64,000 bases of DNA from positions 1,280,001-1,344,000 of the forward strand of contig CAVVPN010000003.1 in NCBI GenBank assembly GCA_963750165.1. Reading direction: 5' to 3'. This document shows positions 15,583-24,935 of this stretch, piece after piece. The notes beneath the pieces are model-generated. The model saw nothing but the letters and a program-made list of their open reading frames with translations. It was not told where the DNA came from and did no database searches. The stretch comes from an uncultured Gemmataceae bacterium. Its GTDB lineage: Bacteria > Planctomycetota > Planctomycetia > Gemmatales > Gemmataceae. The position numbers and the translations under genes were made by a program. Each line of letters opens with the position of its first letter. Within the stretch, counting starts at the first letter, position 1.

Positions 15583-15771
15583 CAAGACACACAAGCAACA
15601 ACGCCCTGGTCTGGCATCAGCGTTTGCGCCAAGCCGCAAGCGGCAGCAAAGCAATGCCTGAACCTGCGTTATCCTGGGGGACCGATACCATTTCGTCAAT
15701 TCCCAAAAAGCGCTTGCCGGCCGACGGCGGCCGTGACTACGATGGGGCGCCGATTTTTTTGCCGACCCGCC

Positions 15772-15797
15772 AAACCAAATCCGGGCGGCCCTCGTCT
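15772..15797 (+). promoter_or_regulatory. Candidate ECF-type promoter (AAACC-N16-CGTCT) upstream of the ECF sigma gene
   Basis: Matches the general ECF AAC/CGT promoter pattern, 18 nt before the ATG; a sigma70-like TTGCCG-N18-TACGAT lies at 15714-15743. Confidence 0.45.
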
Positions 15798-15815
15798 TTT
15801 CTTCCCAGGGAGACC

Positions 15816-16370
15816 ATGACCAAACTCGACGAGTGCCTGACTTCCTCAGCGCCGTCGGTCGGCCAGGACGGCCGCGCCGACGCGGACGTGCTGGTGCAGA
15901 CATTCAACGCCCTGCGCAATGAACTCATCAGCACCCTGCTGTACGTGCTGGGCAACCGCGACGACGCCCTCGACGCCGCCCAGGAGGCGTTCGTCAAGTG
16001 CTGGGGCGCCCGCCAGCAACTGCACCAGGTGCAGAACCTGCGGGCGTGGATCTTCCGCGTCGCCTTCAACACCGCCAAGGACATGCAACGCAGTGCCTGG
16101 CACCGCCGGGCCAAACCGCTCCAGGGGGAGGAGTCCTTGATAATGACCAACCACCCCGGCCCCGCACTCACCGTCGAGCTGCAGGAGTCCGTCGAACGAC
16201 TCCGCAAGGCCATTTTGCAGCTGCGCGACGAGGAAAAGGAAGTCTTTCTGCTGCGGCAGAATGGCGAACTCACCTACGAACAGATCGCCGAGCTGCGCAG
16301 CTGCCCCGTCGGCACCGTCAAGACGCAGATGCGCAGCGCCCTGGAAAAATTACGCAAAATCCTGGTGTAG
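15816..16370 (+). CDS. ECF-family RNA polymerase sigma factor
   Basis: Region 2 (DALDAAQEAFVKCW, LRAWIFRVAFN) and region 4 (LTYEQIAE, PVGTVKTQMRSA); GGGAG RBS. Confidence 0.95.
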   Translation: MTKLDECLTSSAPSVGQDGRADADVLVQTFNALRNELISTLLYVLGNRDDALDAAQEAFVKCWGARQQLHQVQNLRAWIFRVAFNTAKDMQRSAWHRRAKPLQGEESLIMTNHPGPALTVELQESVERLRKAILQLRDEEKEVFLLRQNGELTYEQIAELRSCPVGTVKTQMRSALEKLRKILV

Positions 16371-16476
16371 AGGACGCGCAGCCGTTTGCCAACCTCTCCG
16401 CACCGCAGCGACATTCACGACCATCGCTTTCGCCCCCAAGAAGCGCACGCCAGCGCGTGCCGTGTGAGGACATGCC

Positions 16477-19400
16477 ATGAACTGCGACCACGCACAACCC
16501 CGACTTCTCGACCAGCTGTTCGGCCTGCTCGACGACACCGAGCAACAGGAACTGCAAGCCCATCTCGCCGGCTGCCCCGCCTGCCAGGCCGCGCTGGAAC
16601 AGGCCAAACAGCAACAACTGGTCCTCGGCATCGCCGCCAAGGGCGATTTCAGCCAGGTGAGCTTTGAGCCGCCGGCGCTGCCGCTCCGCCATCCCGCGCC
16701 GGAGCCAACCTTGCAACTGAAGCGGCCGGCCGCCGTGCGCCGCAACTGGAGCCGCTGGGGCGCCGCCGCTGCGGTCCTGCTCGCCATCGGCGCCGGCGCC
16801 GCGCTGGTCGCATGGCCGTGGGCACGCCATGCTGAGGAGATCGCCGCCGCCGAGCGCCGCCAGCATGAGGCCCAGGCCGCCCGTAGCCGCCTCGACGCCG
16901 ACGAGACCGCCCGGCAGGCGAAGGCGGACGCCGAGCTGCGCGCCGTCCACGAGCAGATCAACGTTCTCCGTGAGCGCTGGGAGCGCGAGACCAACAAGGA
17001 CATGGAAATCAGCGTCACCGGCCCCGAAGACCTGCAGGCCGGCGCTCCCACCACTTACACCATCGAAACGCATCGGCTCCTCAAGGATCAGGCCGCGTAC
17101 AGGAAGGCCCCCGCCCGCATCGGCGTCCAGGTCCTCGAAGCCAGGTCGAACAAGGTGCTGTACGCCTCCAAACAGTTGGCGAGCAACGGCAAGGTCGATT
17201 TGCAACTGCCCGGCGACCTGGCCATTACGCCCGAGACCGAACTGCTGCTGCAGGTCAACGCCGAGAACACCGACGGCAAGAAGGTTGAGGTGACCGAACG
17301 GCTCAAGCTGACCGGGCCGCGTTACCTGACGCACCTGGCCACCGACCGGCCGCTGTACCGCCCCGGCGACACCGTCCGCGCCCGCTCGCTCACGTTGCAG
17401 CGCGTCAGCCTGAAACCGCCCGCCCAGGAGCTGGAACTGCGCTTCCGCCTGACCGACGGCCAGGGCAAGAAGCTGTTCGAGCATATTGGCAACGCCCGGG
17501 TGCGGCTCGACGCCAGGACGAAGGACCTGCTCAAGGACTCGGACGGCACGGTGCTGAACGGTTACGGCGTCGCCAACTTCGCGCTGCCGGAGGAGTTGCC
17601 CGAGGGCGTCTACACGCTCACCGTCAGCGAGGAGCGCAACCGCTTCCCCGCCGAGAAGCGCACGTTCCTGGTGCGCCGCTTCCAGACGCCGCGGCTCAAC
17701 AAGGAGGTCGAGTACCACCGCGCCTCTTACGGCCCCGGTGACGCGGTGCAGGCCAACTGCGTCGTCCGCCGCGTCGAGGGTGGCGCCGCCGTCGCCGGCC
17801 AGCCCGTCGAGGCCAGCGTGCGCGTCGATGGCCAGGACGTGCCGGTCGAGCACACCGGCAAGCTCGCCACCGACGCCGCCGGCCGTGTCACGGTGAAGTT
17901 CCGCCTGCCCGAAAAGCTGGTGGACGGCCGCGGCAGCCTGTCGGTCGTCTTCCACGACGGCAAGATCATTGAGACGCTCGACCGGCCGCTGCCGATCGCC
18001 CTCAATCGGCTGCACATCGAGTTCTTCCCCGAGGGCGGTGACCTCGTCGCCGGCGCCGCCAACCGCGTTTACTTCCAGGCCCGCACGCCCCTCGGCCGGC
18101 CCGCCGAGCTGCGCGGCCAGATCATCGACCTGGGCACGTTCGGCCTGTCCGGACTCGCGCCCGGTGATCCCGTCGCCGCGGTGCAGACGCTCAGCGACGA
18201 TAAGGAACCCGGCGTCAACCAGGGCCTGGGTGCCTTCCACTTCACGCCGCGGGCGGGCCACATCTACGCCCTCAAGATCGACACGCCGAAGGGCATGCCC
18301 GGCTTCTACCCGCTGCCGGCGGTGCGCCCCGCAGGCGTCGTGCTGCACACGCCACAGGGCGTCGTGACCGACGGCATCGAGGTCAAGCTGTACAACGCCG
18401 GCCGGCCGCGTCACCTGCTGGTCGGTGCCTACTGCCGCGGCCGGCTGGTGCATCAGCAGACCGTCGCTTGCCCCGCCGACGCCGAGCGTGCCGTGGCCCT
18501 GCGGCCGCCGACCGGCGTCAATGGCGTTTTCCGCGTCACCGTCTTCGAGATGCTGCCCGACCGCGTCCTGAAGCCGCTGGCCGAACGGCTCATCTACCGC
18601 CCGGCCCGCGAGCGCCTCGCCTTCAACGTCAAGACCGACCGCGACGAATACGCTCCCGGCCAGAAGGTCACCGTCCGCGTCAACGCCGACGACGAGCAGC
18701 AGAAGCCGGCGGCCGCGGTGGCGCTGCTGGCGGTGGTCGATCACAGCGTCCTGAAGCTGGCCGACGAGAAGACCTACCGCAGTCTGCCGACGCACTTCTA
18801 CCTGACCACGGAGGTCGGCAAGGCGGACGACCTGGAGCACGCCGACTTCCTGCTGACCGACCACCCGAAGGCCACCCAGACGCTCGACCTGCTGCTGGGC
18901 ACGCAGGGCTGGCGGCGCTTCGCCGAGCAGCCCCAGCAGGACGCCGAGCAGCAAAAGGAACTGTGGATCAAGCATAAGGCCGACGCCGACCGCCTGCTGT
19001 TCGCCTCCGCCGTCACCACGCGCCAGGGCGACGAGGAACTGTTCCAGAAATTGGCCGTCACGCTCGTGACTGAGGCGAAGGAGCTGAAGCGCAAGCACCA
19101 GCAAGTGGTGACGGATCGGCAAGCCCGCGTGGCGCAGGCCGCGGCCGAACGCAAGCGCCTGCAGTCGGAGGAATACACGGCCACGGTGGACATTGGCGAC
19201 GCCGAGGCGGGGTTGACCGGTTATCAAAACCAACTGGTCCACGTCGGCGGTAAACTGGCGGCGCTCGGGCTGCTGGTGCTGGGCTTCGTCGGCATCATCG
19301 TCGGCGCCATGCGCAGCAGCCATCATCAAAAGGAGGGCCGCCTGGCGCTGACGGCCGGTTTCGGCGCGTTCGTGCTGCTGGTGGTCGGCGGCTTCGCTGT

Positions 19401-22317
19401 CGTGCTGTACACCGCTGGCCAACAGGGGGGCTCGGAATCAAACGGCCGTTTGCTCGTGTTGTTTGATAAGTCCGAAGCGATGAAGGAAAAAGAAAAGGCC
19501 ATGGACAAGGCGGCAGCGAAGCAGTGGACGGAGGTTGACGGCAAGGAGGAAAAGGAGCTTCGAAACGCATTGCCGGAAATCTTACAAGCTCAGCGGAATG
19601 CACCCGTCATGTTGACGCGCGTCAAGGTGTTCGATGACGCAGGGCTGGGGGACGAAATCCGCCAACTCAACGAGTTGCTCCGCGAACAGAAGGGCATCAG
19701 GGGTCAGCTGGAAATCGGTCTCGATCCCAAGCAGGGCAAACAGAGACCCGCTGACAAGAAAGAACCGCCGGCCAAGCGCGACCCGGAAGGCCAAGGCAAA
19801 GCAGTGATGGGGAAGGATAAGATGCCTGAACCTGCCTTGGAGCTTATGGTCCCCGCCGGCATCGTCGCCAAGGATCTGCCTCTCGGAGCGAAACTCCGAC
19901 AATTGGCCCTGCAACAGGGGGAACAAGAGATCCTGCCATTGCTGGAACGCATGGACGACGGTAAGCGTGGTCAGAACTTCCAACTCAAGGCCCTTGTGGG
20001 GGAGTACCTCCAGGCCGGCGGCGAGAAACGCAAGAAGTTCTTCCGCGAGATGGAAGGGCTCGAACCGCATCTGCGGCGCAGGCTCGTCCAGCTGCTGGAA
20101 CAGGCGTATGAGCCCTGGGTGGTGCGGCAGTACGCTCACAAGCACACCGCGGCGGCCGACGCGCTCCGCACCGACTTCACCGACACCGTCTGCTGGCAGC
20201 CCGTGCTGGTGCTGCCCGCCGGCAAGACCACCGAGGTGCAGTTCGACCTCAACGACTCCGTGACGCGCTTCCAGATCCTCGTCGCCGGCTGCGACGCCGA
20301 CGGCCGGCTCGGCAGCGCCACGAAAGAATTCGCGGCGAAGCTGCCGTTCAGCCTGCACCCCAAACTGCCGGGCGAAATCAGCAGCGGCGACCGGCTCACG
20401 GTGCCGGTGACGCTCGCCAACGACACGAAGCAGCCGAGCCAGGTGACCGTCTCCGTCAAGGCCGACGGCCTCAAGGTGGCGGGCGCCGCCGCGGTGACCC
20501 GCAAGGTCGGCGGCCAGACGCGGACACGGACGCTGTTCGACCTGACGCCCACCACGGTGGACGGCGTCGCCACGCTGCGTTTCCTGGGCCGCGGCGACCC
20601 GTTCGGCCTCGACGCCATCCAGAAGAAGATTCGCATTGTCCCCGATGGCTATCCCGTGGAAAAATCGCTGAGCGACGTGCTCAGCGGCAACGTTGTCAAC
20701 ACGGTGACGCTGCCGGGGCGGCGCGACCAGTGGGTGGCGGGCACGCTGAAGCTGCAGGCCCAGGTGTTCCCGTCAACGCTATCCGAATTGCAGCAGAGCA
20801 TGGCGGGGATGCTGCGCGAGCCCTACGGCTGCTTCGAGCAGACCAGCAGCAGCAATTATCCGAACGCGCTCATCCTCAGCTACCTGAAGGAGCACGGCCA
20901 GGTGCAGCCGGACATCGAGAAGCGGGCGCAGGACCTGCTGACGCGCGGCTACGCCCGGCTGATCGGCTTCGAGTGCAACAACCCGAACCCGCAGCAGGGG
21001 CCGCCGAAGCGGGGCTTCGAGTGGTTCGGCGGCAATGCTCCGCCGCACGAGGCCCTGACCGCCTACGGCCTGCTGGAGTTCACCGACATGGCGAAGGTAT
21101 TCCCGGTGGACATGGACATGGTGGCGCGGACGAAGACATTCCTGCTGAAGCAGCGCGACGGCAACGGCGGTTTCAACAAGCGGCAGGGCGGCTTCGATGG
21201 CTTCGGCCGGGCGCCGGCGGAATTGACCGACGCTTACATCCTGTGGGCGCTGTCCGAGGCCGGCGCCGCCAATGAAATCCAGCGTGAACTGAACGCCCAG
21301 CACGCCGCGGCGAAGGTCAGCAAGGATTCGTACTTCATCGCGCTGATCGGCCTGAGCTTGCAGAACGCCGGCCGCACGGACGACGCGGTGGCGCTGCTGC
21401 GGCGGCTGCTGGCGGCGCAGCAAAAAGACGGCCACGTCGGCGGCGCCACGACGAGCATCACGCGCTCCGGTGGCCAGAATTTGCACCTGGAGACGACGGC
21501 GCTGGCGGTGCTGGGCTGGCAGAAGGCCAAACGGCCCGACTTCCAGGCGCCGATCCAGAAGGCGATTCGCTGGATTGGTCAGCAGCGCAACGGCGGCGGC
21601 TCGTTCGGCACGACACAGGCGACGGTGCTGTCGCTCAAGGCGCTGCTGACGCACGCCCGCGACAGCAAGCACATGGCGAAGGACGGCGAGGTGCGGCTGT
21701 ACGTCGGCACTGCGAAGGACCCGGTGGTGGTGCAGAAGTTCACGGCCGGCCAGCAGGGGGTGATCACGCTGCCGCTGGCGGACGTGGAGAAGTTGCTGCA
21801 ACCGGGCGACAATCAGGTGCGGCTGGAGCTGACGGGCGGCAACGTGCTGCCGTACACGCTGGCGTGGTCGTACCGGACGGTGACGCCGGTGTCGCACGCC
21901 GACGCGCCGCTGTCGCTGCTGACGAAGCTGGACCGTAACGCCGCGAAGGAGGGCGACACGGTGCGGCTGACGGTCGAGCTGAAGAGCGTCAAGAAGGCGG
22001 ACGGCATGGCGGTCGCGGTGATCGGCCTGCCCGCGGGGCTGATGCTGCCGGACAACCTGGAAGAGTTGAAGCAGCTGGTGAAGCTGCGCGACAACGGCAC
22101 GAAGCCGGGCGAGGTGGATCACTTCGAGGTGCAGGGCCGCGAGCTGGTGCTGTACTGGCGGCAGGCGCCGGCGGCGCGGACGGTGACGTTGTCGCTGATC
22201 TGTCAGAACCCGGGCACGTTCCGCGGGCCGGCGAGCCGGGCGTACCTGTATTATCAGCCGGAGCGCAAGGCGTGGGTCGAGCCGCTGGGCGTGACCGTGA
22301 CGCCAGCGGCAGAGTGA
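16477..22317 (+). CDS. Zinc-finger anti-sigma domain fused to alpha-2-macroglobulin family protein (1946 aa)
   Basis: N-terminal C..HLAGCPAC (zf-HC2/ZAS) plus TM helix; MG motifs TDRPLYRPGDTV, FFPEGG, TDRDEYAPGQKV, LAVVD, RTDFTDTVCW; thioester PYGCFEQT at 20821-20844; C-terminal ASRAYLYY. Confidence 0.9.
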   Translation: MNCDHAQPRLLDQLFGLLDDTEQQELQAHLAGCPACQAALEQAKQQQLVLGIAAKGDFSQVSFEPPALPLRHPAPEPTLQLKRPAAVRRNWSRWGAAAAVLLAIGAGAALVAWPWARHAEEIAAAERRQHEAQAARSRLDADETARQAKADAELRAVHEQINVLRERWERETNKDMEISVTGPEDLQAGAPTTYTIETHRLLKDQAAYRKAPARIGVQVLEARSNKVLYASKQLASNGKVDLQLPGDLAITPETELLLQVNAENTDGKKVEVTERLKLTGPRYLTHLATDRPLYRPGDTVRARSLTLQRVSLKPPAQELELRFRLTDGQGKKLFEHIGNARVRLDARTKDLLKDSDGTVLNGYGVANFALPEELPEGVYTLTVSEERNRFPAEKRTFLVRRFQTPRLNKEVEYHRASYGPGDAVQANCVVRRVEGGAAVAGQPVEASVRVDGQDVPVEHTGKLATDAAGRVTVKFRLPEKLVDGRGSLSVVFHDGKIIETLDRPLPIALNRLHIEFFPEGGDLVAGAANRVYFQARTPLGRPAELRGQIIDLGTFGLSGLAPGDPVAAVQTLSDDKEPGVNQGLGAFHFTPRAGHIYALKIDTPKGMPGFYPLPAVRPAGVVLHTPQGVVTDGIEVKLYNAGRPRHLLVGAYCRGRLVHQQTVACPADAERAVALRPPTGVNGVFRVTVFEMLPDRVLKPLAERLIYRPARERLAFNVKTDRDEYAPGQKVTVRVNADDEQQKPAAAVALLAVVDHSVLKLADEKTYRSLPTHFYLTTEVGKADDLEHADFLLTDHPKATQTLDLLLGTQGWRRFAEQPQQDAEQQKELWIKHKADADRLLFASAVTTRQGDEELFQKLAVTLVTEAKELKRKHQQVVTDRQARVAQAAAERKRLQSEEYTATVDIGDAEAGLTGYQNQLVHVGGKLAALGLLVLGFVGIIVGAMRSSHHQKEGRLALTAGFGAFVLLVVGGFAVVLYTAGQQGGSESNGRLLVLFDKSEAMKEKEKAMDKAAAKQWTEVDGKEEKELRNALPEILQAQRNAPVMLTRVKVFDDAGLGDEIRQLNELLREQKGIRGQLEIGLDPKQGKQRPADKKEPPAKRDPEGQGKAVMGKDKMPEPALELMVPAGIVAKDLPLGAKLRQLALQQGEQEILPLLERMDDGKRGQNFQLKALVGEYLQAGGEKRKKFFREMEGLEPHLRRRLVQLLEQAYEPWVVRQYAHKHTAAADALRTDFTDTVCWQPVLVLPAGKTTEVQFDLNDSVTRFQILVAGCDADGRLGSATKEFAAKLPFSLHPKLPGEISSGDRLTVPVTLANDTKQPSQVTVSVKADGLKVAGAAAVTRKVGGQTRTRTLFDLTPTTVDGVATLRFLGRGDPFGLDAIQKKIRIVPDGYPVEKSLSDVLSGNVVNTVTLPGRRDQWVAGTLKLQAQVFPSTLSELQQSMAGMLREPYGCFEQTSSSNYPNALILSYLKEHGQVQPDIEKRAQDLLTRGYARLIGFECNNPNPQQGPPKRGFEWFGGNAPPHEALTAYGLLEFTDMAKVFPVDMDMVARTKTFLLKQRDGNGGFNKRQGGFDGFGRAPAELTDAYILWALSEAGAANEIQRELNAQHAAAKVSKDSYFIALIGLSLQNAGRTDDAVALLRRLLAAQQKDGHVGGATTSITRSGGQNLHLETTALAVLGWQKAKRPDFQAPIQKAIRWIGQQRNGGGSFGTTQATVLSLKALLTHARDSKHMAKDGEVRLYVGTAKDPVVVQKFTAGQQGVITLPLADVEKLLQPGDNQVRLELTGGNVLPYTLAWSYRTVTPVSHADAPLSLLTKLDRNAAKEGDTVRLTVELKSVKKADGMAVAVIGLPAGLMLPDNLEELKQLVKLRDNGTKPGEVDHFEVQGRELVLYWRQAPAARTVTLSLICQNPGTFRGPASRAYLYYQPERKAWVEPLGVTVTPAAE

Positions 22318-22658: not shown

Positions 22659-24802
22659 TCACGCCGGATAAAATCCCTTGCCCGCTGCCGCCAGCTTGCG
22701 CATCTGCTCCGTCGGCTGGAAGCGCAGCCCCAGCGCTTCGTAGCGGCTCAGCTTTTCCAGCACCGTCTTGAGCCCGAGCGTGTCCGCCCAGCGCAGGATG
22801 CCGCCGCGGAACGGCGGAAAGCCGATGCCCAGAATCAGGCCCATGTCCACGTCGCCCGGCTCGCGCACAATGCCCTCGGTCAGCACCCGGCTTGCCTCCA
22901 CCAGCATCGGCAGGAACAACCGATCCGTCAGTTCCTCCTGCGTGAACTGCTTCTGCCCGGTGCGCACGCGCTCCAGGATCGCCGCGAACGCCGGATCGTC
23001 CGCGCCCTTGCCGCCCTTCAGGTAGCTGTAAAAGCCGGCCCCGCTCTTCTGACCGAGCCGGCCCGCGGCGACCAGCTCGCCGAGGATGCGCGTCGGCTTC
23101 GCCCGGTCGGCGAACGCGGTGTTGACCACCTGCCCCGCATACAGCGACGTGTCCAGGCCCACCAGATCGTTGAGCGTCACCGGCCCCATCGGCATGCCGA
23201 ACGCCACCGCCGCTTTATCGATGTCGCGCGGGTTGGCCCCCTCCTCCAGCAGCACCAGCGACTCGTTGAGGTACGGGAACAGGATGCGATTCACCAGGAA
23301 CCCCGGACAGTCGCGCACGACAATCGGCGTCTTGCCGATGCGCCGCGCCAGCGCCACCAGCGTCGCCACCGCCTCGTCGCCGGTCTTTTCTCCGCGGATC
23401 ACCTCCACCAGCTGCATGCGATCCACCGGGTTGAAGAAGTGCATGCCCGCGAAGCGCTCCGGCCGAGACCACGCCTGGGCCATGCGCGTGATGGAAATCG
23501 TCGAGGTGTTCGACGCCAGAATCACGTCCTGCCGCAGAATCTGTCGCAGCTGGCCATACATCTCCGTCTTGGCCGCCTCATTCTCGACGATGGCCTCGAT
23601 GACCACGTCGCAGTCGCGCAGCAGTTCCAGGTTGCTGGTCGTGGTCAGGCGCATCATGGCCGTGATCATTTCCGCGGGCGTCATGCGGCCGATCTCAATA
23701 CGGCCCTGCATGCTCTTGGCGATGGCGGCGACGCCCTTCTCCAGCGCCGCGGGCACCTTGTCGATCATGACGGCAGGCAGACCGCGGCGGATGTGAGCGC
23801 CGGCGATGCCCGCGCCCATGATGCCGGCGCCGAGCACACCGACGCGCTGCACGTCGCGCGGTTTTACATTCGGATCGCTGACGCCGGGATCCTTCGCCAG
23901 CCGCTGCTGCTGGAAAAAGATGGCGATCAGGTTGCGCGAGATCGGGCTGCCGACCAGTGGCAGGAACGACTCCGTTTCGACCTGGAGGCCGTCCGTTAGC
24001 GGCAGGTTACAGCCCTTGATGATCGCGTCCAGCGCTGCCAGCGGCGCCGGCAGCTGGCCCCTGGTTTTCATCAGCACCTGCCCGCGCACCACCGCGGCGG
24101 TGAAGCTCAACTCCTCCTCGGTGAGACCGACCGGTTGCCGCTTGCGCCGGCGCAACTCCTGCCAGTCGCCGCTGTCGATGGACCAGTGGATGAGCCGCAC
24201 CGCCTCGTCCTGGAGGCGTTCGCTCGGCACCGCGTCGAAGACGATGTGCAGCTCGCGCGCCGCTGGGCGTTGACCGCGTCGCCGGGGCAGATCAGCTCCG
24301 CCGCCAGTGCCGGGCCGATGAGCCGCGTCAGCCGCTGCGTGCCGCCCCAACCGGGGATGATGCCGATTTTCGTCTCGGGCAAACCGATCTCCGTCTTCGG
24401 ATGCGAGCCGGCCAGGCGGTAGTCGAAGCCGAGCGCGAATTCCGTGCCGCCACCCATGCAGGCACCGTCGATCAGCGCCACCGTCGGGAACGGCAGTTCC
24501 TCGAACGCGGCGATGATGTTCAGGCCGCGGGCGGTTAGCTTGCGCATCATGTCCGGCGTCGCGTTGCTGGCGCCGAGTTCCTTCAGGTCGGCCCCGGCGA
24601 TGAACATGCCCGGCTTGCCGCTGCGCAGGATCAGGCCGCGCACGTCCGTGCGGCCCCGGAGTTCGGCGAGCACCTGCTCGAACTCCGCCTGGATGGGCTG
24701 GCCGAGCGTGTTGGCCCGGCTGCCGGGCAGGTCGAAGGTCAACACCGCGATGCCGTCCTCGCCGATGTGCAGGCCGAGGGCCGCCGAAGACGCCTGTGCC
24801 AT
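22659..24802 (-). CDS. fadJ: Fatty acid oxidation complex alpha subunit (enoyl-CoA hydratase / 3-hydroxyacyl-CoA dehydrogenase, FadJ/FadB type); frameshift at ~24261
   Basis: FIAGADL, CMGGGTE, GLPETKIGIIPGWGGTQRL in ORF 24107-24829; GVLGAGIMG, ASNTSTI, GMHFFNPV, GFLVNR, GFPPFRGG in ORF 22659-24350; GGAGG RBS before ATG 24802. Confidence 0.9.
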
Positions 24803-24822
24803 TTCTTCATCCTCCTTCGGAG

Positions 24823-24935
24823 GAGTCATTAGCCATTAGTCATTAGTCATTAGTTATCTGGGTTGGGGAGCCGGGCGAGCGTCTCGGCTCCCCAACCCAG
24901 ATAACTAATGACTAATGACTGATGACTAATGACTC
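24823..24935. repeat. Long palindrome whose arms carry (TCATTAG)x4 heptamer arrays
   Basis: gagtcattag ccattag tcattag tcattag ttatctgggttgggg ... ccccaacccagataa ctaatga ctaatga ctgatga ctaatga ctc. Confidence 0.9.

What the first reader, a model, noticed from the sequence alone, without database searches (positions are those of the whole stretch)
15772..22317. ECF sigma factor paired with an anti-sigma / alpha-2-macroglobulin fusion: candidate protease-sensing signal transduction system
Seen: an ECF sigma gene is immediately followed by one uninterrupted 1946-aa ORF. It begins with a zinc anti-sigma motif (C3..H-x3-C-x2-C), then a TM helix and a coiled coil, then a full A2M with an intact CxEQ thioester motif (PYGCFEQT). 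Established: ZAS domains bind the sigma factor encoded beside them. Bacterial A2Ms are usually lipoproteins, often encoded with pbpC, that trap proteases after bait cleavage with a large conformational change. Here I see no lipobox and no pbpC in the window. Inference: the A2M acts as the extracytoplasmic sensor, so attack by a foreign protease would both trap the protease and trigger sigma release. I know of no characterised system with this architecture, but I cannot exclude existing annotations.
Basis: partly seen in the sequence, partly recalled or inferred. Interest (0 to 1): 0.85.

Follow-up and report, generated by a model that had tools for sequence, protein, structure and literature searches.

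The report
Protease-trap receptor controlling a sigma factor
In planctomycete bacteria, a protease-trapping protein like our blood alpha-2-macroglobulin is fused to a membrane switch that holds a transcription factor, so that a cut by an intruding protease probably turns on genes for further protease inhibitors.

Summary
Confirmed and extended. An ECF sigma (15816-16370) precedes one 1946-aa ORF: class I anti-sigma domain, TM1, helical stalk, and a complete animal-like thioester alpha-2-macroglobulin (A2M). The pair is conserved across Planctomycetota, so it is no artefact.

The hairpin comes and goes with the anti-sigma domain and the sigma gene.

TM1 has the xAA ClpXP-degron signature (164 of 171). 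A sigma/anti-sigma model passes (0.81, best control 0.01; textbook-like pair).

A promoter (CAAWC-N16/17-CGTC) precedes the sigma gene (81 of 83 loci). It also precedes serpins (15 of 29 loci) and secreted A2Ms (11 of 14), and is not enriched in five genomes lacking the sigma.

Best reading (0.6): a periplasmic protease tripwire that induces an anti-protease regulon by regulated proteolysis. The covalent trap is dispensable: 25 of 64 complete sigma-linked copies lack the thioester.

Not found in the papers searched; two planctomycete ECF papers were unavailable. The scan had not noted this fusion before; a side finding (selenocysteine A2M) it had. Nothing is tested experimentally.

The parts
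15769..15799 (+). Predicted autoregulated ECF promoter: -35 CAAAC, 17 nt, -10 CGTC; ends 16 nt before the sigma ATG
   Evidence: Strict motif in 61 of 83 upstream regions (shuffled mean 0.33, max 2); weight matrix finds it in 81 of 83; this site scores 23.9 bits
15816..16370 (+). ECF sigma factor, 184 aa
   Evidence: Sigma70_r2 and r4_2, TIGR02937 over cut-off; 42-73% identical to 83 partners of the same anti-sigma family
16477..22317 (+). Anti-sigma / alpha-2-macroglobulin fusion, 1946 aa, three TM helices
16477..16677 (+). Class I anti-sigma domain with ZAS motif (C3, H29, C33, C36); cytoplasmic
   Evidence: zf-HC2 E 3.8e-7; HxxxCxxC in 111 of 121 homologues; complex model
16756..16812 (+). 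TM1 (residues 94-112) with the Ala-Ala pair A97-A98, a candidate ClpXP degron after site-2 cleavage
   Evidence: A98 invariant in A1; xAA in 164 of 171 anti-sigma-bearing copies, 1 of 8 without, 50 of 198 control hairpin helices
16813..16992 (+). Stalk 1: long helix continuous with TM1; periplasmic
   Evidence: AlphaFold2 helix over residues 92-172
16999..18921 (+). Macroglobulin (MG) domain ring and linker, up to the conserved GxxGWR motif
   Evidence: MG2, A2M_BRD; model matches C3/C5/CD109/A2M beta-chains, E about 1e-24
19030..19404 (+). Stalk 2 and two-helix membrane hairpin (TM2 927-945, short basic cytoplasmic loop, TM3 958-976) inserted in the bait-region segment
   Evidence: exactly two helices in 120 of 121 homologues; loop K+R 20% vs D+E 3.5%
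19420..20121 (+). Variable, largely disordered bait region (family median 217 aa, rich in A/G/P)
   Evidence: pLDDT under 50 over most of 982-1145; composition and length; unalignable across homologues
20167..22314 (+). Second half of MG6, MG7, CUB, TED and MG8
   Evidence: model pLDDT 92.8; TM-score 0.69-0.75 to native A2ML1/CD109/C3/TEP1, 0.64-0.66 to E. coli and Salmonella A2M
20830..20841 (+). Thioester motif C1452-F-E-Q1455
   Evidence: GC[FG]EQ in 117 of 121 homologues
22237..22254 (+). MG8 motif RAYLYY, the expected thioester-shielding tyrosines
   Evidence: YxYY in 117 of 121; lost together with the thioester in L040; role by analogy with PMC4498604
22326..22397 (.). 36-bp inverted repeat right after the stop; probable end of the two-gene operon
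   Evidence: function not tested

Best explanation
A two-gene transmembrane signalling unit that senses proteolytic attack in the periplasm. (1) The N-terminal anti-sigma domain holds the sigma at the inner membrane (predicted binding, not measured). (2) The A2M body stands in the periplasm on two helical stalks: one from TM1, one leading to a membrane hairpin placed in the bait segment (topology inferred from hydropathy, charge bias and a model). (3) An intruding protease cuts the long disordered bait; in thioester-bearing copies, such as this one, it is also captured covalently (inferred from A2M biochemistry). (4) The cut loosens the stalk/hairpin assembly, so that stalk 1 is trimmed, RseP cuts TM1 after the Ala-Ala pair and ClpXP destroys the anti-sigma domain (inferred from the degron signature; the site-1 step is unidentified). 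(5) The free sigma transcribes its own operon and a set of exported proteins that includes serpins and other A2Ms (inferred from promoter conservation). The sensor is the bait cut; the trap is an optional extra.
For: Linkage: sigma directly upstream in 19 of the 20 best loci among relatives; 83 loci with sigma and anti-sigma domain on one strand. Topology: 120 of 121 with hairpin; positive-inside bias before TM1 (K+R 25%, D+E 3.5%) and in the hairpin loop (20%, 3.5%), none after TM1 or TM3. Co-occurrence: of 29 phylum-wide loci, 13 have a sigma (12 with hairpin, 1 cut by a contig end), 15 have neither sigma nor hairpin, 1 has a ZAS without hairpin. A second A2M clade paired with a different ECF has its own hairpin in 120 of 120 proteins, with no detectable homology to the first (hhalign 24.6%). 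Stalk lengths co-vary, r 0.79, rho 0.51, n 179. Binding: score 0.81, best of 3 controls 0.01; the mark was reached by 116 of 157 solved and 2 of 215 mismatched pairs; runs agree in at least 93% of contacts; partner pLDDT at least 88. Its contacts (helix 1 to sigma4, helix 4 to sigma2 and sigma4) fit the dual interface in PMC7406223. Degron; RseP and ClpX in the genome; VAA/XAA mechanism in PMC3597663 and PMC12203970. Regulon: promoter at 14 bits or more before serpins in 15 of 29 loci (reverse strand 0; 30 shuffled matrices 0-1) and before non-fused A2Ms in 11 of 14 (controls 0); background 5 of 1200 own genes; strict pattern 90 hits vs 18 reversed in 25 related genomes, but 9 vs 15 in five genomes without this sigma, which also gave no serpin.
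Against: No experiment and no expression data. The complex resembles solved ECF/anti-sigma pairs, so the pass may be from memory. That this sigma reads the motif rests on autoregulation and co-occurrence; the genome has a 60%-identical paralogue with the same promoter. Much of the regulon is not a known inhibitor: of 78 pattern sites read, 39 were unassigned, 12 preceded A2M-type or serpin genes, and 19 preceded VIT-vWA, vWA, DUF2330 or DUF4139 genes. In this genome the serpin site is weak (15.2 bits), the top targets are DUF2330 clusters, vWA, WD40/HEAT proteins and a proA-like gene, and no other complete A2M was found. Two of the 14 A2M loci were fetched after their pattern hit was seen (9 of 12 without them). 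Exceptions: three sigma-linked copies lack the hairpin (L054, L058, L059); three keep hairpin and sigma but have no detectable MG domain or bait after it (L077-L079); seven hairpin-bearing copies showed no sigma in the DNA held (L036, L103, L106, L107, L108, L111, L124). An xAA motif does not always make an anti-sigma labile (RslA). Kin are not independent. I could not measure contacts between the two stalks.
Confidence: 0.6

Rival explanations
1. General envelope-damage sensor: the disordered bait is cut by the cell's own periplasmic proteases (HtrA, S41 type) under stress, or the MG ring binds some ligand; foreign proteases are not the special input.
For: Half of the pattern sites are unassigned and many targets have no known function; copies without TED, without hairpin, or without detectable MG domains keep the sigma; one site precedes an S41 peptidase and one an aspartyl protease.
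Against: Serpins and several separate A2M lineages carry the promoter across two families; 39 of 64 complete copies keep the thioester.
Confidence: 0.2
2. Same input, but no proteolysis of the anti-sigma: the large A2M rearrangement moves the stalks and the TM1/TM2/TM3 bundle and releases the sigma allosterically.
For: TM1 and TM2 are each continuous with a long helix; stalk lengths co-vary; A2M activation involves a large rearrangement (PMC4498604).
Against: The xAA motif is kept in 164 of 171 anti-sigma copies and in 1 of 8 without the domain; TED-less copies cannot make the TED movement.
Confidence: 0.1
3. The fusion mainly anchors and co-expresses a protease trap; sigma activity follows the turnover or amount of the protein (homeostasis) with no specific sensing step.
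For: The operon is probably autoregulated; some Gemmata-line copies swapped or lost the anti-sigma domain and kept the hairpin, and two of them carry the promoter themselves.
Against: Paralogues that end right after the second half of MG6 cannot trap covalently, yet keep sigma, hairpin and bait. Consumption of the trap by proteases would itself be sensing.
Confidence: 0.09
4. Assembly or read-through artefact joining an anti-sigma gene to an A2M gene.
For: Neighbouring genes in this window look frameshifted; 5 of 82 sigma-linked loci are split into several ORFs.
Against: All 121 proteins examined have the anti-sigma domain, and 118 also the TED, on one chain, from five sources; the cultured strain Zavarzinella formosa DSM 19928 has it (L112).
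Confidence: 0.01

Closest known systems
Membrane-bound class I anti-sigma factors under regulated intramembrane proteolysis (RseA/sigmaE, RsiW/sigmaW, RsdA/sigmaD)
   Same: ECF gene followed by an anti-sigma gene; N-in domain; predicted dual interface; xAA motif in the TM helix; autoregulated promoter.
   Different: The outside part is a 1800-aa thioester macroglobulin on two stalks with three TM helices. No group description in the held, truncated supplement of PMC7826278 mentions a macroglobulin.
RsiV/sigmaV lysozyme sensing
   Same: An anti-sigma that is both receptor and inhibitor of a hostile enzyme and induces resistance to it.
   Different: RsiV binds lysozyme; here the input is probably cleavage of a bait by proteases, with optional covalent capture.
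Type I bacterial alpha-2-macroglobulins (E. coli ECAM/YfhM, Salmonella SaA2M)
   Same: CxEQ motif, disordered bait, periplasmic location (PMC4498604, PMC5764988).
   Different: No lipobox, no pbpC, TM anchors instead, a hairpin in the bait segment, a cytoplasmic signalling domain; structurally somewhat closer to animal TEPs.
Type II bacterial A2M (P. aeruginosa MagD, E. coli YfaS)
   Same: Membrane-associated; MagD traps without a thioester, a precedent for the thioester-less copies.
   Different: This copy has the thioester; no six-gene operon; no third conserved gene in the neighbourhood.
Animal thioester proteins (CD109, A2ML1, A2M, TEP1, C3)
   Same: Best sequence hits (CD109 E 7e-22, A2M 6e-17) and best fold hits.
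   Different: They are secreted or GPI-anchored and have no intracellular output domain. The position aligned with A2M's Asn, recalled as C3's catalytic His, is Asp in 113 of 117.

Membership tests
Class I anti-sigma (ZAS type) | Hx3Cx2C zinc motif in an N-terminal helical domain | tested here: met
   111 of 121 homologues
Class I anti-sigma (ZAS type) | Encoded next to an ECF sigma | tested here: met
Class I anti-sigma (ZAS type) | Dual interface: helix 1 on sigma4, helix 4 on sigma2 | tested here: met
   Predicted only: 0.81 vs best control 0.01; textbook-like pair
Class I anti-sigma (ZAS type) | Inhibits the sigma in vivo or in vitro | not testable with these tools
   needs a reporter or in vitro transcription
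RIP-regulated anti-sigma | xAA degron in the N-in TM helix; RseP and ClpX encoded | tested here: met
RIP-regulated anti-sigma | Site-1 and site-2 cleavage on stimulus | not testable with these tools
   no site-1 protease identified
Thioester protein (A2M/C3/TEP) superfamily | MG ring, split MG6 around a bait segment, CUB, TED, MG8 | tested here: met
Thioester protein (A2M/C3/TEP) superfamily | CxEQ motif with shielding tyrosines | tested here: met
Thioester protein (A2M/C3/TEP) superfamily | Thioester bond forms and captures proteases | not testable with these tools
   needs methylamine/autolysis and capture assays
Type I bacterial A2M (YfhM/ECAM) | Gene next to pbpC | tested here: not met
   no TIGR02073 match in the 93%-complete genome; no conserved third gene
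Type I bacterial A2M (YfhM/ECAM) | Lipoprotein anchor (recalled feature) | tested here: not met
   no lipobox Cys; three TM helices
Type I bacterial A2M (YfhM/ECAM) | Ten MG domains, two extra at the N-terminus (PMC4498604) | tested here: inconclusive
   only bMG10 among the bacterial MG models hit; domains not counted on coordinates
Type II bacterial A2M (MagD/YfaS) | No CxEQ; six-gene operon | tested here: not met
A described ECF group | Score against group-specific HMMs | not testable with these tools
   no such library held; the best named NCBIfam subfamilies are below cut-off

The most novel reading that the evidence does not exclude
A bacterial tripwire receptor for hostile proteases built from a complement/A2M-type protein. 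A membrane-anchored bait couples cleavage to sigma release and to an inducible anti-protease regulon (serpins, secreted A2Ms including selenocysteine-bearing ones, inter-alpha-trypsin-inhibitor-like VIT-vWA proteins). The design may have arisen twice in Planctomycetota and perhaps again in Chloroflexota.
Probability: 0.55. Interest if true: 0.93.

Novelty: new variant of a known kind. Interest (0 to 1): 0.86.

Why it matters
Bacterial A2Ms have been treated as passive periplasmic shields, and how bacteria notice attack by proteases of predators, competitors or hosts is open. This locus gives a testable receptor, a predicted promoter and a predicted regulon in one package, in a lineage with cultured members. 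It would make a thioester protein a signal-transducing receptor, which none of the A2M papers read here describes. It also assigns several families of unknown function (DUF2330, DUF4139, VIT-vWA) to a probable defence programme. Because A2M baits can be swapped, it suggests a programmable protease-to-transcription sensor.

Tried and rejected
Sequencing runs: none was listed for the locus, so nothing is known on expression. Conserved third gene in the neighbourhood: none found in 61 loci. Sigma-70 promoter scan: 0 sites. ECF group assignment: not possible; no match by description in the held supplement of PMC7826278, which was cut when stored. Wiegand 2020 (PMC7286433) and Jogler 2012 (PMC3497475), the two planctomycete ECF classifications, are not held and may describe this architecture. 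Literature searches that returned no description of an anti-sigma/A2M fusion: 30 of 487 listed; 0 papers; judged from listings only. Stalk-to-stalk and TM-to-TM contacts: the structure tool returns no coordinates, so only helix extents and the length correlation were used. The careful tree did not finish; the quick tree (46 rows, SH-aLRT only) cannot tell two gains from one gain and two losses. The class-A promoter matrix finds nothing before six class-B sigma genes, so their regulon is unknown. The native-like state of the C-terminal model was not counted as evidence of activity. Thioester as the required trigger: rejected. Fusion as artefact: rejected. bioRxiv supplements are closed and were not needed.
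Full report
OBSERVATION. The two ORFs are as described. The sigma runs 15816-16370 (184 aa). The long ORF runs 16477-22317 (1946 aa) with zf-HC2, MG2, A2M, TED and bMG10 over their Pfam cut-offs. Hydropathy gives three membrane helices, 94-112, 927-945 and 958-976; a fourth weak peak at 744-762 is a beta-strand in the model. The genome has one paralogue, 1165 aa and TED-less, also behind a sigma. Named close relatives are Gemmataceae and other Planctomycetota, so the window is inferred to come from that lineage.

CONSERVATION. 40 of 41 related genomes hold an A2M-type match. In 19 of the 20 best loci a sigma 55-80% identical to this one lies directly upstream. A protein search with residues 1-1000 gave 869 hits among 8000 scored candidates; I examined the 120 listed plus the query. 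Of these 121: anti-sigma domain 121, HxxxCxxC 111, TM1 above my threshold 109, exactly two helices in the bait segment 120, TED 118, thioester motif 117, MG8 YxYY 117. No third gene is conserved around the pair.

TOPOLOGY. Residues before TM1 and in the short TM2-TM3 loop are basic (K+R 25% and 20%; D+E 3.5% each); those after TM1 and TM3 are balanced. By the positive-inside rule (established knowledge) the anti-sigma domain and the loop are cytoplasmic and everything else is periplasmic. AlphaFold2 on residues 91-1290 (60 rows; pLDDT 78.9, pTM 0.68) gives one helix for TM1 plus stalk (92-172), MG domains, one helix for stalk plus TM2 (852-948), TM3 (953-980), a disordered stretch, then the strands that complete MG6. 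The model matches C3/C5/CD109/A2M. The C-terminal 732 residues fold with pLDDT 92.8 and match A2ML1, CD109, C3 and TEP1 (TM 0.69-0.75; Z 37.5, rmsd 5.1, 663 aligned for A2ML1) slightly better than E. coli and Salmonella A2M (0.64-0.66). The two stalk lengths co-vary over 179 proteins (r 0.79, rho 0.51), as expected if both run from the MG ring to the same membrane; related sequences inflate this.

WHAT TRAVELS TOGETHER. In 29 loci from a 200-genome phylum sample, 13 have the sigma and an anti-sigma-like N-terminus (12 with hairpin, 1 cut), 15 have no sigma, no hairpin and mostly a signal peptide, and one (L341) has a ZAS motif without hairpin. Myxococcota relatives are of the secreted kind. 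A distant clade (class B) pairs a ZAS-A2M with a different ECF (about 25% identity). All 120 listed class-B proteins have a two-helix hairpin, whose second helix resembles DUF1559 pilin-like proteins and shows no homology to the class-A hairpin. The quick tree puts A with secreted class D, and B with secreted class C. So fusion and hairpin are coupled in two lineages; whether they were gained twice or lost twice is open.

THE TRAP IS OPTIONAL. Of 82 sigma-linked loci tallied, 13 were cut by contig ends and 5 split. Of the 64 complete ones, 39 are full-length with the thioester motif, 2 have lost the motif, 4 lack the TED but keep MG8, and 19 end at or before the second half of MG6; 61 have the hairpin. 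This sample is not random: I fetched both best hits and short forms. Most short forms keep hairpin, a long bait and the MG6 strands. Exceptions are L054, L058, L059 (no hairpin) and L077-L079 (hairpin, no bait after it, no detectable MG domain).

ANTI-SIGMA FUNCTION. The predicted complex of the sigma with residues 1-70 scored 0.81 against a best control of 0.01; this mark was reached by 116 of 157 solved and 2 of 215 mismatched pairs; runs agreed in at least 93% of contacts; partner pLDDT was at least 88. It is a textbook-like pair, so this shows likeness, not binding. The interface fits the dual mode in PMC7406223 (passages). TM1 carries an xAA motif in 164 of 171 anti-sigma-bearing proteins, in 1 of 8 without the domain (one of the 8 had no readable window) and in 50 of 198 control helices. 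Such motifs become ClpXP degrons after RseP cleavage in RseA, RsdA and RsgI, though not in RslA (PMC3597663, PMC12203970, PMC8103513; passages). RseP and ClpX are encoded in the genome.

PROMOTER AND REGULON. Upstream of the sigma genes lies CAAWC-N16/17-CGTC: strict form in 61 of 83 regions (shuffles: mean 0.33), matrix form in 81 of 83. In this genome, 14 of 20 sites at 20 bits or more sit just before a gene start (three shuffled matrices: 1 of 4, 1 of 12, 0 of 16). 16 of 22 targets at 16 bits or more have a hydrophobic N-terminus, against 2019 of 7215 genes called by my own simple gene finder. They include both sigma operons, DUF2330 clusters, a secreted vWA protein, an ABC transporter, WD40/HEAT/EF-hand proteins and a proA-like gene; a three-serpin cluster follows at 15.2 bits. 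In relatives the site precedes the first serpin in 15 of 29 loci and non-fused A2Ms in 11 of 14 (9 of 12 without two picked after the pattern search), with controls at 0-1. A strict pattern gave 90 hits against 18 for the reversed pattern in 25 genomes. I read 78 of the 90 (the other 12 were 7 sigma or DUF2330 sites known by position and 5 own-genome sites covered): VIT-vWA 8, A2M-type 10, serpin 2, secreted vWA 5, DUF2330 3, DUF4139 3, sigma 4, two further shared families 4, unassigned 39. In five genomes whose best match to this sigma is 28-36% or absent, the pattern is not enriched (9 vs 15) and no serpin was found.

MECHANISM. Shown: gene pair, domain content, conservation, motif enrichment. 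Predicted: topology, sigma binding, promoter use. Inferred: bait cleavage, capture, site-1/site-2 proteolysis, release. A 200-residue floppy bait cannot transmit tension, so the likeliest coupling is that the cut, with the new free end and the A2M rearrangement where a TED exists, unshields stalk 1 and TM1 for proteolysis. The hairpin is the candidate lock. Confidence 0.6; rivals are a general envelope-stress input (0.2), allosteric release (0.1) and homeostatic turnover (0.09).

COMPARISON. It works like RseA/RsiW-type systems, and like RsiV in being both receptor and inhibitor (recalled). It belongs to the thioester-protein superfamily and to class I anti-sigmas, but it is neither a Type I nor a Type II bacterial A2M as defined in PMC4498604 and PMC5764988 (passages). 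Databases label homologues 'hypothetical', 'anti-sigma factor RsiW' or 'alpha-2-macroglobulin-like', each seeing half. 'Macroglobulin' does not occur in the main text or held supplement of PMC7826278, nor in the main texts of PMC7406223 and PMC7671368. PMC10059941 (passages) was irrelevant. Ten searches found no description (listings only). Wiegand 2020 and Jogler 2012 could not be read. Earlier scan notes hold no such fusion; one note describes a separate sigma/anti-sigma pair beside a secreted thioester gene, which I did not check.

VERDICT. A real, conserved and apparently undescribed architecture with independent computational support for a protease-defence role. New variant of a known kind; interest 0.86.

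Noticed in passing
L069, L070, L072, L310, L311, L313, L314 (class C A2M genes in related genomes): In-frame TGA exactly at the thioester Cys, followed by a hairpin (-10.7 to -18.7 kcal/mol; Cys-bearing class C copies -5 to -10.8). selB is present in three of these genomes that were tested. Probable selenocysteine A2M; five of the seven carry this sigma's promoter. Noted earlier by the scan.
   Followed up: partly
G000:C4:896070-900134 (L053): Second sigma (60% identical) with a TED-less paralogue ending after MG6, and the same promoter (24.2 bits): probably a trap-less sensor sharing the regulon.
   Followed up: partly
L061-L063, L065-L067; P0123-P0242: Class B: a different ECF with a ZAS-A2M fusion, short bait and a DUF1559/pilin-like second hairpin helix; regulon unknown.
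   Followed up: partly
L036, L103, L107, L111, L106, L108: Hairpin-bearing A2Ms without a neighbouring sigma whose N-terminus is replaced (zinc ribbon, another helical domain) or lost; the xAA motif is mostly gone.
   Followed up: partly
ESM Atlas cluster, rank 10: 59-member cluster with zf-HC2 (98%), MG2 and A2M_BRD, commonest phylum Chloroflexota (known for 5 members); score 0.76, a lead only.
   Followed up: no
G000:C4:601733-607594, C3:3094785-3097702, C3:2582495-2586999, C3:2258687-2261712: About a dozen near-identical secreted DUF2330 genes in tandem clusters, each cluster headed by the promoter.
   Followed up: partly
L306-L308, L233, L249, L276, L286, L294: Large (about 2100 aa) A2Ms with a TPR-like N-terminus, preceded by the same promoter; the three read in full have a CxEQ motif.
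   Followed up: partly
window:15210-15600: Nested inverted repeats (up to 28 bp perfect), REP-like, between the upstream gene and the promoter.
   Followed up: no
window:11916-14335 and 22659-24829: A P-type ATPase and a FadB-like gene each appear split over two frames; probable sequencing indels or pseudogenes.
   Followed up: no
window:9711-11785: Two tandem paralogous vWA/copine-like genes on the minus strand (weak Pfam hits).
   Followed up: no
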